Source: a phage. From it: 57,325 nucleotides of DNA. Position numbers: made by a program. Below are positions 33,001 to 36,000 of this stretch, piece by piece. The DNA lies in the NCBI GenBank assembly GCA_025497365.1, contig GCA_025497365.1_4955.1; one strand, written 5' to 3'. Within the stretch, counting starts at the first letter, position 1. Each line of letters begins with the position of its first letter.

Positions 33001-36000
33001 TGATTAGTGCAATAACGAAAGTTATTAGCACAATTCTAAACCCCATTTTAAAATTGTTCATGCCGAATACCAGTGCGTCGGCTAATCTTAAGAATTCACG
33101 TTCAGCGTCATCTAACAACGCGCTTCAGGGGCGTACTAATGCTTCACGACCGGGTGAACGTATTTCTGATATTCGTGGTCGTGTACTGGCATATCCTGAT
33201 TTGTTAATGGACTACCGAATCTTCATTGACCGAACAGAATACGAAGTTCAGTTTCTGTGTCTGGGTGCTGGTGAATACGAAGTCGAAGACGTTCGTGATG
33301 GTATTACACCTGCGGTAAATATCAGTGGTGAAAAATTAGACTTTTATAAAAAAGGTAATGCACCAGGGTATGGTTCTCCATATATGAATATCGGTGGTGC
33401 AATTGATATTAACACTTTTCCGATCATGGTTGCTAAGTCATCGAACGAAGCAGACGGATCTGAAGTCAAGCCACCAAACTATGCTGATATCAGTAAAGCA
33501 AGTTTTAAAGTTTACAGCACTGGTGAAATTGACACTACGATTACCAGTGATGATAACACTACGATTGACTGGTCGGAACGTGCACCAATCGGTAGTAAAA
33601 TTCGTTTATCACAATTTTACAGTTTTACACCTAATACGTTACCGTTAAACACGTATGTACGTAATGACCTGTCCGGTGAATATGATGTTATTTATGCAGG
33701 TGAGAATACGTTAATCATTGATACTAATGGTCGTGATGGTTGGGATGCTCTGTCTGAAAGTGGTCAGGCTGCGTATACACAGGCTTACTTGCGAAACGAC
33801 GGTTACTGGGAATTTGAACCCACTGAAGGAAGCGGAAATTTTTTATACAAATTTTCACCGTCTCTTGACAGTACCACGCCATATGTTGTCGGGCCTTATC
33901 TGATTGATAGTGCGGATAAGTTGATGATTAACCTTTATGCACAGAATGGCGTGTATAAAACGGACGGTGATGTTTACCCGTTTACCTGTAAATTCCAGGT
34001 AGTTTTGTCGGACCCGAACGGTGTGAAAGCAAATGTGACACATTCTATGTCTGTCAGTGGTCGCTATACAGAAGCTGTAGGCAGTTCGTTAATTGTGGAC
34101 AACCCTTTTGACGGTCCTGTTAACGTGTCTGTAAGACGACTGTCAAATACAGATAAAGATTTCGAAGGGTCTGTTGTTGATAACATTAAGTGGCGCGATT
34201 TATACGCTATCACAAACGTTTCCCCGCGTTCCTATGGTGATGTGACATTGATCCATACAGTGACGAAAGCAACAAATGCGGCACTGAAACAAAAAGAACG
34301 TAAATTAAACATGATTGCAACCCGTGTATATAACGGTGTTGCAAGTAGTAATTTTGCAGACGTTGTAATGTCAATGCACACAGATCCTTTATTTGGTCGT
34401 CGCACATTGGACACTATTGATCGCGATGCTTTATATGCTGTTAAGGAACAACTTCTTGAATATTTTGGTGACCAACGAGCAATTGAAGTTGGTTATACAT
34501 TTGATAATAACAGTACGACGTACGAAGAAGGATTGGACACTATCTGTAACACGGTGAATGTTAAACCATATCAGATCGGTAGTGTATTGTATTTCTGGCC
34601 TGAATTACCACAGGAGCAGTCCGCAATGCAATTCGGTCACGCGTTTAAGATTCCTGACAGTGATAAGCGCACACGTTCTTTTGCACCACCTAAAGAATAT
34701 ACGGGTGTTCAGGTTAAATACTTCGATCACAATGAAAAATCATATTTGTATGTAACTAAAGGTGAAGAAACAAACCTTAATAAGATAGATCTTGTTGCAT
34801 GTCAGTCGCGATATCTTGCAAACATCCGTGCTAATCGTGAGATGAATAAATTACGTTATCAACGTGTTACTCACGAGTGCACAGCGCTTAGTATCGGGTT
34901 ACAGGCTACCCCGGGTATGCGTGTGGATATGATTGACAATTCCCGTATGAAACAACACGAAGGTATTGTAGTTGACGTTGACGGTTTAACACTTATTCTT
35001 AGTGATCCTGTTACGTTCACCACGGGTAATACATACAGTATAACGTTGACACACCGACTGGGAACACTTGAAAACATTCCTGTAACTGCCGGGGATGATG
35101 AATTTTCAGTGGTAATGGCTTATCAACCGTCTGAAGAAATTTACACGGGGTGGTTACGTGACCGTACCGCATATGTTATCCGTGCTGATGACGAACGTAG
35201 CAAATTAGCAATGCTTGTTCAGAGTATGGAACCGTCAGGAAGGGATAACAATTATCAGGTAGGTTTAACGTGCATCAATTATGATGCACGTTATTATCAG
35301 GATGATTTATAACAAGTTATCTAAGCCGTTGGCTTGTTTTTTGTTACAAAATCTGAGCAGTGGAAAGATAAGCAGACAGGAGAAAAGAAAGAGCAGACTG
35401 AATGGCATCGCGTGGTCATCTTCGGTAAACTTGCTGAAGTTGCAGGAGAATACCTTCGCAAAGGTTCGCAGGTTTATATCGAAGGCCAGCTACGCACTCG
35501 TAAATGGTCTGACAGCAACGGCGTAGACCGATATACCACTGAGATTGTCATTTCACAAATGGGAGGCGTTATGCAGATGCTTGGTGGTAAACGTGATGAT
35601 TCTGGTCAGCAATCAGGCCAGCAATCAGGCCAGCAACCGCAACGACAACATAAGACTTGGAACATGGAGGATGAATAGAAATCATCAAAAGCAAGATATA
35701 TTGTCTGGAGTAAACAAGAGCGGAAGAAGATGCAAGAGAGTCATGAAGTTTGATTCTGATTACAATCTTATTTGTGAATATCCATCCTATAATTCAGCGG
35801 CGCGTGACTGTGGTTATTCAATTGAGTATCAAATAAAAAATGGCGTTAAATGCAGGAATGGATTTTTTGGGAGTATAAATCTTAGTGCATACCTACCCTT
35901 CTGATGATAAAACTAACCCCGCCGAAGCGGGGTTTTGATTACTTTATTATAGATACATGAAGTCTTACCGTTCCGCCGGTAGTAACGTCTGATACAAACG

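What the first reader, a model, noticed from the sequence alone, without database searches (positions are those of the whole stretch)
35313..35936. Remnant region after the tail tip gene: truncated ssb plus a NUMOD1-like fragment
Immediately after the stop of the large tail gene there is an ORF whose product aligns with the C-terminal half of the bacterial SSB OB-fold but lacks the N-terminal 55 or so residues and the acidic C-terminal tip, with only a TTG start. The stop of this ORF overlaps the start of a 77-aa ORF resembling a NUMOD1 DNA-binding module without a nuclease domain. Both look like decayed remains of an acquisition event, possibly homing-endonuclease mediated. The ssb fragment also contains a CAGCAATCAGGC triplet repeat.
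Basis: partly seen in the sequence, partly recalled or inferred. Interest (0 to 1): 0.58.

Follow-up and report, generated by a model that had tools for sequence, protein, structure and literature searches.

The report
Dead ssb and endonuclease gene scar
The stretch after the tail-tip gene is non-functional debris, a beheaded and tail-less copy of another phage group's ssb gene plus the last 40% of a homing-endonuclease gene, carried in when the phage imported a host-recognition (tailspike) cassette; its one likely remaining role is as a patch of shared DNA where later tailspike swaps cross over.

Summary
Window 35343-35650 is a fragment of a bacterial-type ssb gene. It corresponds to codons 34 to about 136 of a 160-codon gene, so 33 N-terminal residues are missing, not about 55. 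It is 91-95% identical in DNA to the intact ssb of 45-48 kb siphoviruses of the Skatevirus cluster (S192, KFSST1, IME207).

In those phages ssb lies tail-to-tail with the tailspike gene, and the two share one terminator. The window is a 9NA/Sasha-like phage. It acquired ssb'-terminator-tailspike as a block.

Six genomes share the identical left junction. Three of them carry further independent lesions: a deletion, a nonsense codon and a frameshift. Mutations found only in these carriers are 10 non-synonymous to 2 synonymous, which fits neutral decay.

Window 35644-35885 is the 3' 40% of a free-standing endonuclease gene (PHROG 1035, "endonuclease VII"/HNH-like). This gene sits at the ssb stop codon in S192, C1 and PSH-1. 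Its surviving part contains a NUMOD1-like unit. It entered the resident ssb' after the capture. A ~490-bp deletion at a 7-nt microhomology (GACAACA) then removed its promoter and its N-terminal 117 codons. A 1-nt deletion later shifted its end.

So this is a pseudogene scar, and the ssb capture was not endonuclease-mediated. Two recombination crossovers map inside ssb', so the scar now serves as a homology arm for tailspike exchange.

The parts
35310..35312 (+). Stop codon (TAA) of the 843-aa tail-tip (J-like) gene 32781-35312. Genomes that carry the ssb remnant end ...DDL*; relatives without it end ...DD*.
35313..35342 (+). Junction filler of unknown origin. It contains a small hairpin (35322-35336, 6 pairs) followed by TTTTTTGTT, which looks like a weak terminator. 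The TTG 'start' of the ssb' ORF (35334) lies in the 3' arm of this hairpin, and there is no Shine-Dalgarno sequence.
   Evidence: dG -9.2, z -2.3
35343..35650 (+). ssb pseudogene (ssb'): codons 34 to ~136 of a 160-codon bacterial-type phage ssb. It lacks 33 N-terminal codons and the last ~24 codons, including the acidic tip.
35509..35540 (.). Recombination breakpoint inside ssb'. To the left, the window is 99.9% identical to Sashavirus BDX09P1 over 5.3 kb. To the right, there are 11 differences in 52 nt, the sequence becomes Bas82-like, and homology then ends at 35650.
35607..35636 (+). 12-nt tandem repeat CAGCAATCAGGC, 2.5 copies, in the Gln/Gly-rich SSB linker.
35644..35650 (.). GACAACA, a 7-nt microhomology at the junction of a ~490-bp deletion. 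The deletion removed the ssb tail, the endonuclease promoter and RBS, and endonuclease codons 1-117.
35644..35885 (+). Endonuclease-gene remnant: codons 118-197 of a 197-aa free-standing endonuclease (PHROG 1035). It is 94-95% identical to the gene in phages S192, C1 and PSH-1 and is out of frame with ssb'. The mechanical 77-aa ORF is 35671-35904.
35731..35829 (+). NUMOD1-like helix-turn-helix unit (CKRVMKFDSDYNLICEYPSYNSAARDCGYSI) within the endonuclease remnant.
35863..35868 (+). T6 run where S192 and PSH-1 have T7. This 1-nt deletion replaces the conserved ...NGFFW.YKS* end with ...NGFFGSINLSAYLPF*.
35893..35904 (+). The last ssb codons plus stop (CTA CCC TTC TGA, LPF*), left downstream of the endonuclease insertion. 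Together with the terminator this is the proposed homing site. The sequence is of the resident (BDX09P1) type.
35915..35934 (.). Bidirectional intrinsic terminator (8-bp stem AACCCCGC/GCGGGGTT) shared by ssb and the convergent receptor-binding genes. It is conserved in many unrelated phages.
   Evidence: (dG -14.2/-15.8, z -3.6/-4.0)
35939..38188 (-). The imported receptor-binding module: a 485-aa tailspike (Tail_spike_N + GDPD, 36731-38188) and a 261-aa partner (35939-36724). Window 35899-37792 is 93% identical to ENA metagenome contigs, which also carry a ~30-nt ssb 3' remnant beyond the same terminator.

Best explanation
Window 35313-35936 is a non-coding recombination scar. I infer four steps.

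(1) Capture of the tailspike cassette. An ancestor of a sub-clade of 9NA/Sasha-like phages took a tailspike cassette from a 45-48 kb siphovirus of the Skatevirus cluster. In those donors the gene order is exonuclease, recombinase, ssb ->, terminator, <- tailspike. The left joint was illegitimate, joining the tail-tip stop codon and ~30 nt of filler to ssb codon 34. The right joint presumably lay in the conserved N-terminal anchor region of the tailspike gene. The 3' two-thirds of ssb and the shared terminator came along as passengers.

(2) Decay of ssb'. The fragment has no promoter, no RBS, no N-terminal OB-fold strands and, in this window, no acidic tip. It is decaying neutrally.

(3) Invasion by the endonuclease gene. 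ssb' kept the ssb stop-codon/terminator region, which is where a free-standing endonuclease gene inserts in S192, C1 and PSH-1. That gene invaded the resident ssb' in the window's lineage. It was then inactivated by a ~490-bp microhomology-mediated deletion and a 1-nt frameshift.

(4) Present role. What the scar still does, it does at the DNA level. Its ~300 bp of 90-95% identity to donor ssb, together with the conserved terminator, is the only homology to donor phages on the left of the receptor-binding genes. Later tailspike swaps resolve their left crossover there.

What is shown and what is inferred:
- Steps 1-3 are shown by sequence comparison. Their order and the homing mechanism are inferred.
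- Step 4 is shown for two crossovers. Whether selection maintains this role is not shown.
For: Origin of ssb'.
- Pfam and PHROG identify a partial SSB.
- ssb' is 91-95% identical in DNA to phage ssb from codon 34 onward.
- In the donors, ssb is convergent with the tailspike gene.

A single left junction.
- The identical left junction occurs in six genomes: the window, BDX09P1, Bas82, 536P12 and two IMG/VR contigs.
- Relatives without the insert have the tail-tip and tail-fibre genes abutting.

Decay.
- BDX09P1 has an in-frame TAG. 536P12 has a 1-nt frameshift, and there the TTG is out of frame. The window has a C-terminal deletion.
- Variants shared with 27 donor ssb genes are 33 synonymous to 5 non-synonymous. 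Carrier-only variants are 2 synonymous to 10 non-synonymous plus 1 indel (Fisher p=1.5e-5). The neutral expectation is 77% non-synonymous.
- There is no promoter-like site and no Rfam family.

The endonuclease remnant.
- It is 94-95% identical to the 3' part of the S192/PSH-1 gene.
- PSH-1's ssb is only 77% identical to ssb', so the endonuclease gene moves independently of ssb.
- The sequence to the right of the remnant is of the BDX09P1 type, not the S192/PSH-1 type.
- The deletion junction is a GACAACA microhomology.
- A frameshift destroys the family-conserved W.YK end.

Use as a homology arm.
- Window versus BDX09P1: 5 mismatches in 30250-35539, then 17 in the next 100 nt, then no homology.
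- Carrier UViG_3300045988_029198 versus donor IME207: 9% divergent across the ssb' OB part, then 398 nt with no mismatch running from the ssb linker through the terminator into the tail-fibre gene.
- ssb' alleles of the carriers are interleaved with donor alleles.
Against: - The reading frame of ssb' is still open in all carriers except 536P12, and it runs to an intact acidic tip in Bas82 and the two IMG/VR contigs.
- Pairwise pN/pS among carriers is low, 0.05-0.14. On its face this resembles purifying selection. I attribute it to variation imported from functional ssb genes. However, 65% of all possible synonymous changes already exist among the donors, so the split into 'shared' and 'carrier-only' variants is biased.
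- No expression data exist.
- The window shares carrier-only alleles with Bas82 (35553T, 35564A). The window/BDX09P1 crossover could therefore have been between two carriers, in which case its position inside ssb' would be less meaningful.
- The right-hand joint of the original capture was not mapped.
- Cleavage specificity of the endonuclease is untested.
Confidence: 0.85

Rival explanations
1. The N-terminally truncated SSB is an expressed, selected protein. For example, it could act as a decoy or dominant-negative that binds host SSB partners through the acidic tip, or it could blunt SSB-sensing defence systems.
For: The reading frame is open in five of six carriers, and an intact DF(D/S)DDIPF tip survives in three. 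pN/pS among carriers is low. No other bacterial-type SSB was detected in the window. The Bas82 authors annotated the fragment as a CDS.
Against: The window's copy lacks the tip. BDX09P1 has a nonsense codon before the tip, and 536P12 is frameshifted. The only start is a TTG inside a hairpin with no RBS, and it is out of frame in 536P12. Carrier-only mutations are 10 non-synonymous to 2 synonymous and hit conserved OB-fold residues. Most 9NA/Sasha-like phages lack the fragment altogether. The missing 33 residues include the first OB-fold strands; from general knowledge of E. coli SSB these form part of the barrel and the dimer interface, which was not tested here.
Confidence: 0.05
2. One reading: a homing endonuclease mediated the acquisition of the ssb fragment, so that both remnants stem from one event.
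For: The two remnants are adjacent. In S192, C1 and PSH-1 the endonuclease gene sits directly at the ssb stop codon.
Against: Five carriers with the identical ssb' left junction have no endonuclease sequence. The window's endonuclease remnant is flanked on the right by resident-type sequence and on the left by a Bas82-type ssb' allele. The ssb' breakpoint (codon 34) is ~400 bp from the endonuclease insertion site.
Confidence: 0.06
3. The 77-aa ORF (35671-35904) is a domesticated stand-alone NUMOD1 DNA-binding protein, such as a regulator.
For: It has an ATG start with GGAG just upstream. The NUMOD1-like unit is intact.
Against: The GGAG lies only 1 nt from the ATG. The gene's own promoter and RBS were deleted. 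A frameshift replaces the family-conserved C-terminus. The deletion junction was found nowhere else in IMG/VR or JGI metagenomes or among the records matched in the phage database, so there is no evidence of conservation.
Confidence: 0.04
4. The ssb fragment was picked up from the bacterial host chromosome, as the first reader's reference to enterobacterial ssb implies.
For: The fragment is 72% identical in amino acids to E. coli SSB residues 29-117.
Against: It is 91-95% identical in nucleotides to phage ssb genes. The homology continues contiguously through the phage terminator into phage tail-fibre genes.
Confidence: 0.01

Closest known systems
Bacterial-type SSB (Pfam PF00436, PHROG 44) of Skatevirus-cluster siphoviruses, e.g. 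Escherichia phage S192/C1 (Deseoctovirus), Salmonella phages KFSST1 and IME207 (Shuimuvirus)
   Same: 91-95% nucleotide identity over codons 34-136. The terminal codons and the downstream terminator are the same.
   Different: The window's copy lacks codons 1-33 and the last ~24 codons including the acidic tip. It has no RBS or ATG. It sits after a tail-tip gene rather than after a recombinase gene. It is a pseudogene.
Free-standing HNH/'endonuclease VII'-type homing-endonuclease-like genes with a C-terminal NUMOD1-type helix-turn-helix (PHROG 1035; compare I-HmuI-like and other NUMOD-bearing endonucleases, from general knowledge)
   Same: The remnant is 94-95% identical to the 3' 242 nt of the 197-aa gene of S192/PSH-1. 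It keeps the NUMOD1-like unit. In the donors the gene occupies an intergenic site at the end of a conserved gene and has its own promoter, as free-standing homing endonuclease genes do.
   Different: Only 80 of 197 codons remain. The Cys4 zinc-finger N-terminus and most of the nuclease motif are gone, and the C-terminus is frameshifted. In this family the motif reads PSxDR...DNIxLxTW, with Arg where HNH_3 has the general-base His. Nuclease activity and homing have never been tested.
Mosaic joints and gene remnants at module boundaries in tailed phages (modular evolution; novel joints from illegitimate recombination; conserved boundary or linker sequences in lambdoid phages; from general knowledge)
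   Same: One illegitimate joint beside a functional module, a passenger gene fragment, a conserved terminator at the module border, and later homologous exchange using the shared flank.
   Different: Here the linker is a pseudogene derived from a replication gene. It connects the receptor-binding gene pools of two siphovirus groups that are otherwise unrelated. The crossovers can be mapped to within tens of bases.
Tailspike exchange among O-antigen-specific enterobacterial phages (P22, 9NA, Det7 and others share tailspike receptor-binding parts on different N-terminal anchors; from general knowledge; BASEL collection paper PMC11990801 for Bas82)
   Same: The conserved N-terminal anchor (Tail_spike_N) is kept while the C-terminal enzymatic parts are swapped. 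The six carriers all have different receptor-binding parts, matching podoviruses, myoviruses or metagenome contigs.
   Different: The literature I read does not mention the ssb remnant at this locus.

Membership tests
SSB (PF00436), as a functional member | Complete OB fold (Pfam profile positions 1-104) | tested here: not met
   Only profile positions 28-101 are matched. The intact donor SSB matches 1-101. DNA homology starts at codon 34.
SSB (PF00436), as a functional member | Acidic C-terminal tip (D-F-D-D-x-I-P-F) that recruits partner proteins | tested here: not met
   The window ORF ends ...HKTWNMEDE*. The tip codons were deleted, leaving only LPF* 230 nt downstream in another reading frame.
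SSB (PF00436), as a functional member | Translation signals and purifying selection | tested here: not met
   The only start is a TTG inside a hairpin, with no SD sequence and no promoter-like site. Carrier-only substitutions are 10 non-synonymous to 2 synonymous, and sister copies carry nonsense and frameshift lesions. Expression itself cannot be tested here.
NUMOD1 domain (PF07453) | Match to the Pfam NUMOD1 profile | tested here: not met
   No hit at E<=1 for the window ORF or for the full-length S192 protein.
NUMOD1 domain (PF07453) | Homology to bona fide NUMOD1 repeat units | tested here: met
   phmmer gives E 3e-16 and 1e-14 against proteins with 7 and 10 Pfam NUMOD1 repeats. Fragment residues ~30-62 align to each unit. 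Family member P0013 has a weak direct NUMOD1 hit at the aligned position.
Free-standing homing endonuclease gene (PHROG 1035 / HNH-EndoVII type) | Intact nuclease domain | tested here: not met
   Codons 1-117 are deleted. The window fragment gives no PHROG hit, whereas the full S192 protein hits PHROG 1035 at 1e-16.
Free-standing homing endonuclease gene (PHROG 1035 / HNH-EndoVII type) | Sporadic distribution at one conserved insertion site, independent of the host gene's phylogeny | tested here: met
   The gene is present in S192, C1 and PSH-1 and absent from KFSST1, IME207 and others. The cassette and left joint are identical in S192 and PSH-1, although PSH-1's ssb is only 77% identical to the window's ssb' (S192's is 91%). 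The ssb terminal codons are duplicated on the right.
Free-standing homing endonuclease gene (PHROG 1035 / HNH-EndoVII type) | Site-specific cleavage of the endonuclease-free allele | not testable with these tools
   This needs an in vitro cleavage assay or a co-infection homing assay.
Rho-independent terminator | GC-rich hairpin followed by a U tract, stable relative to shuffled sequence | tested here: met
   35915-34: 8-bp stem with 6 GC pairs, T-runs on both strands, dG -14.2 and -15.8, z -3.6 and -4.0. Termination itself was not tested.
Pseudogene or recombination scar | Truncated relative to intact homologues, with a shared junction, independent secondary lesions and a neutral substitution pattern | tested here: met

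The most novel reading that the evidence does not exclude
The ssb remnant and the conserved ssb-stop/terminator element are not merely tolerated debris. They may be a retained 'adapter': a portable homology arm that connects 9NA/Sasha-like phages to the much larger tailspike pool of Skatevirus-cluster phages, and to that pool's homing endonuclease. On this reading it is kept because lineages that carry it switch host serotype more readily. It would be a pseudogene maintained by second-order selection for evolvability.
Probability: 0.25. Interest if true: 0.55.

Novelty: new member of a known kind. Interest (0 to 1): 0.3.

Why it matters
The feature is ordinary in kind: a mosaic joint with passenger gene fragments. 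It is unusually well resolved, and three practical points follow.

- Annotation. 'Single strand DNA binding protein' is annotated at this position in Bas82 and would be called here too. That call is wrong for function and should be marked as a pseudogene.
- Mechanism. The locus documents, almost base by base, how a tailspike cassette moved between two unrelated siphovirus groups. It also shows how the leftover flank then guided further exchanges. This bears on predicting and engineering host range in O-antigen and capsule-specific phages.
- Homing site. An endonuclease gene can invade a dead copy of its target gene as long as the ~40-bp site at the ssb stop codon survives. This points to the site an experiment could test.

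Tried and rejected
- A second, native SSB in the window. tblastn gave one weak hit at 50239-50376, but it lies out of frame inside a 784-aa primase/helicase-like ORF, so it is spurious.
- Word-indexed protein search with the endonuclease fragment. It found nothing. The exhaustive search was needed.
- Direct Pfam NUMOD1, HNH or Endonuclease_7 hits on the fragment or on the S192 protein. There were none.
- Reading the low pairwise pN/pS as evidence of function. Rejected after splitting variants into donor-shared and carrier-only.
- The idea that every carrier's current tailspike came from an ssb-adjacent donor. Not supported. The receptor-binding parts of Bas82, BDX09P1 and 536P12 match a podovirus and large myoviruses. 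Only the IMG/VR carrier shows an uninterrupted ssb-to-tail-fibre block with a donor.
- Searches for the window's deletion junction in IMG/VR and JGI metagenomes. No matches.
- An Rfam scan of 35200-36000. Only sub-threshold terminator-like matches.
- Tracing the ~30-nt filler at 35313-35342 to ssb codons 26-33. Similarity is about 10 of 25 positions, which is inconclusive.
- Read-through from the tail-tip gene. It is in the same frame as ssb', but two in-frame TAA codons intervene in the window, so I judged this a coincidence.
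Full report
**What the window is.** The region lies in a 9NA/Sasha-like siphovirus. Its closest records are Sashavirus BDX09P1, Escherichia phage KarinMuster_Bas82 and Sashavirus 536P12. The 843-aa gene ending at 35312 is the J-like tail-tip gene.

On the opposite strand sit two receptor-binding genes. One is a 485-aa tailspike with Tail_spike_N and GDPD domains (36731-38188). The other is a 261-aa gene (35939-36724). The finding covers the 624 bases between the tail-tip gene and these two convergent genes.

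**Checking the observation.**
- The ORF 35334-35678 matches Pfam SSB at E=3.3e-25, over profile positions 28-101 of 104 only. It also matches PHROG 44.
- Its only possible start is a TTG.
- Its end (...HKTWNMEDE*) is not the SSB acidic tip.
- Its stop overlaps the ATG of a 77-aa ORF running from 35671 to 35904.
- The 12-nt repeat CAGCAATCAGGC is present 2.5 times at 35607-35636.
- Two details need correcting. The missing N-terminus is 33 residues, not about 55. 'NUMOD1-like' is supported only indirectly, as described below.

**Where the ssb fragment came from.** In DNA, 35343-35650 is 91% identical to the intact 160-codon ssb of Escherichia phage S192 (Deseoctovirus) and Salmonella phage KFSST1, starting at codon 34. 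It is 86-93% identical to about 27 further ssb genes on 45-48 kb viral contigs.

In all annotated donors the gene order is exonuclease, recombinase, ssb. Then comes a terminator, and then the tailspike gene on the other strand. The fragment is therefore the neighbour of a tailspike gene in another phage group.

Relatives of the window that lack the fragment (Sasha, AVIO78A, PJ16) have the tail-tip and tail-fibre genes abutting or overlapping.

Six genomes share exactly the same left joint. It reads: tail-tip ...GATGATTTATAA, about 29 nt of filler, then ssb from codon 34. The six are the window, BDX09P1, Bas82, 536P12 and two IMG/VR contigs. The joint therefore arose once, by illegitimate recombination.

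**Is ssb' functional?** I conclude it is not.
- It has no ATG or GTG start. Its TTG lies in the 3' arm of a small hairpin followed by a T-run, and there is no Shine-Dalgarno sequence.
- No promoter-like site lies between the tail-tip stop and the downstream terminator.
- Three of six copies carry additional, independent lesions. The window lost the C-terminal tail. BDX09P1 has an in-frame TAG before the tip. 536P12 has a 1-nt frameshift and a 1-nt shift that puts the TTG out of frame.

One result pointed the other way. Pairwise pN/pS among the six copies is low, 0.05-0.14, with pS of 0.04-0.39 (0.13 or more for all pairs except the two near-identical IMG/VR contigs). I therefore divided the variant alleles according to whether they also occur in 27 functional donor genes.

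| Variant class | Synonymous | Non-synonymous | Indel |
|---|---|---|---|
| Shared with donors | 33 | 5 | 0 |
| Carrier-only | 2 | 10 | 1 |

The Fisher test gives p=1.5e-5, and the neutral expectation is 77% non-synonymous. Mutations that arose in the remnants look neutral. The 'selected-looking' diversity was imported from functional genes.

There is a caveat. 65% of all possible synonymous changes already exist among the donors, so some new synonymous mutations are counted as shared. Correcting for this gives roughly 6 synonymous to 11 non-synonymous new changes. That is still far from the donor ratio.

**The second ORF.** Window 35644-35935 is 94-95% identical to the 3' part of a 197-aa gene and its downstream flank. 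This gene lies between ssb and the terminator in S192, C1 and PSH-1 only. It is annotated 'endonuclease VII' and matches PHROG 1035, with HNH-endonuclease PHROGs on its N-terminal 48 residues.

The window keeps codons 118-197. Pfam finds no NUMOD1 in the fragment or in the parent. An exhaustive search of 1.8 billion representatives does hit proteins carrying 7-10 NUMOD1 repeats plus HNH_3 and NUMOD4 domains. Residues ~30-62 of the fragment align to each repeat.

Four observations show the remnant is dead.
- The ssb and endonuclease homologies overlap on GACAACA (35644-35650). This marks a ~490-bp microhomology-mediated deletion that removed the ssb tail, the endonuclease promoter and RBS, and codons 1-117.
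- The two remnants are in different reading frames.
- A T7-to-T6 change at 35863-35868 replaces the family-conserved ...NGFFW.YK* end.
- The deletion junction occurs nowhere else in IMG/VR or JGI metagenomes.

**Order of events.** The endonuclease gene is mobile. S192 and PSH-1 carry the same cassette with an identical left joint (ssb end ...TCAATACCCTTCTAA followed by a TTGACG...TATAAT promoter-like sequence). Yet PSH-1's ssb is only 77% identical to the window's ssb', against 91% for S192's.

Downstream of the cassette, a degenerate copy of the last ssb codons remains. So the gene inserts at the ssb stop codon.

In the window, the sequence to the right of the remnant is TACCCTTCTGATGATAAAACTAACCCCGCCGAAGCGGGGTTTTGATTA. 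Apart from one base in the terminator loop, it is the BDX09P1 (resident) version, not the S192 or PSH-1 version. The ssb' sequence to the left is Bas82-like.

The endonuclease gene therefore entered an ssb' that was already resident, probably by homing during co-infection, and then decayed. This contradicts the idea that the endonuclease brought the ssb fragment in.

**What the scar does now.** Two crossovers map inside it.
- First crossover: the window and BDX09P1 differ at 5 positions between 30250 and 35539. They then differ at 17 positions in the next 100 nt and lose all homology at 35650. The left edge of their tailspike difference thus lies about 200 nt inside ssb'.
- Second crossover: the IMG/VR carrier 3300045988_029198 is 9% divergent from the donor phage IME207 across the OB-fold part of ssb'. 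It then has no mismatch over 398 nt, from the ssb linker through the stop codon and terminator into the tail-fibre gene. Identity is 98% for a further ~250 nt before homology ends.

In addition, carrier ssb' alleles are interleaved with donor alleles rather than forming one group.

The window's own receptor-binding module (35899-37792) is 93% identical to ENA metagenome contigs. These contigs carry the same terminator and a ~30-nt ssb 3' remnant in an unrelated context. The module is also 86% identical to a Logan contig in which the module again faces an ssb gene, this one of a different type.

The ssb-end/terminator element thus travels with tailspike cassettes. The longer ssb' supplies homology for the left crossover. 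Whether selection keeps it for that reason is open, and I put that at about 0.25.

One caveat applies. The window shares two carrier-only alleles with Bas82. The window/BDX09P1 crossover may therefore have involved another carrier rather than a Skatevirus-type donor.

**Comparison with known things.** The parts belong to known families as dead copies: SSB (PF00436) and a PHROG 1035 free-standing endonuclease with a NUMOD1-type DNA-binding unit. The phenomenon is a classical mosaic joint with passenger fragments, followed by homologous exchange through the shared flank.

The paper describing Bas82 does not mention the remnant. The Bas82 GenBank record annotates it as a functional SSB.

**Verdict.** In kind it is ordinary. 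As an example it is well resolved and useful, mainly for annotation and for understanding receptor-binding gene exchange.

Noticed in passing
window 35939-38188 (- strand): A two-gene receptor-binding module: a 485-aa tailspike with Tail_spike_N and a glycerophosphodiester phosphodiesterase (GDPD) domain, followed by a 261-aa gene with its own GAGGG ribosome-binding site. The phage database has no match for the 261-aa protein and none beyond roughly the first half of the tailspike, so nothing covering its GDPD domain. The pair is conserved (56-93%) in metagenome contigs. An AlphaFold model of the 261-aa protein (pLDDT 79) is all-beta and resembles carbohydrate-binding modules CBM22/16/4. A phosphodiesterase tailspike suggests a phosphate-linked, teichoic-acid-like or capsule receptor.
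   Followed up: partly
window 35893-35941: The ssb stop-codon region plus the bidirectional terminator (TTCTGATGATAAAACTAACCCCGCCGAAGCGGGGTTTT) recurs at 92-100% identity (over 33-48 nt, depending on the record) next to receptor-binding genes in many unrelated phages. These include 68-73 kb phages (PBM-2, PBM-3, phi G17) and metagenome contigs. It is a candidate conserved boundary sequence for cassette exchange.
   Followed up: partly
window 35266-35293: A perfect 12-bp hairpin (dG -18.5, z -5.2) lies inside the last 50 nt of the tail-tip coding sequence. It falls within sequence conserved in all relatives aligned, and it is annotated as a terminator in phage Sasha. Its role in termination, in which direction, is unclear, because it precedes the stop codon.
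   Followed up: no
L002 3453-4046 (S192) and L011 1150-1743 (PSH-1): The full-length endonuclease family has a Cys4 N-terminus and a conserved PSxDR...DNIxLxTWxxN motif. Arg stands where HNH_3 endonucleases have the catalytic His. Whether these proteins cleave DNA, and with which active site, is unknown.
   Followed up: no
window 35310-35345; L001 3310-3345 (Bas82): The ssb' reading frame is the same as the tail-tip frame. In Bas82 a single TAA separates the two, whereas the window has two TAAs. This is probably a coincidence, but a read-through fusion in Bas82 was not excluded.
   Followed up: no
window 44228-44415: A perfect 30-nt tandem repeat (ACAGGTGCTGCCGCTGGTGTAGGCGCTGCT, about 6 copies, encoding a Gly/Ala-rich decapeptide repeat). 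Copy number appears to differ from BDX09P1.
   Followed up: no
window 37750-39250 vs BDX09P1 (L097): To the right of the receptor-binding genes (the anchor region, holin and endolysin), divergence from BDX09P1 is patchy. There are 43 mismatches in 37750-38000 and 23 in 38500-38750, with near-identity by 39250. The exchanged segment may extend into the lysis genes, or there were several events.
   Followed up: no
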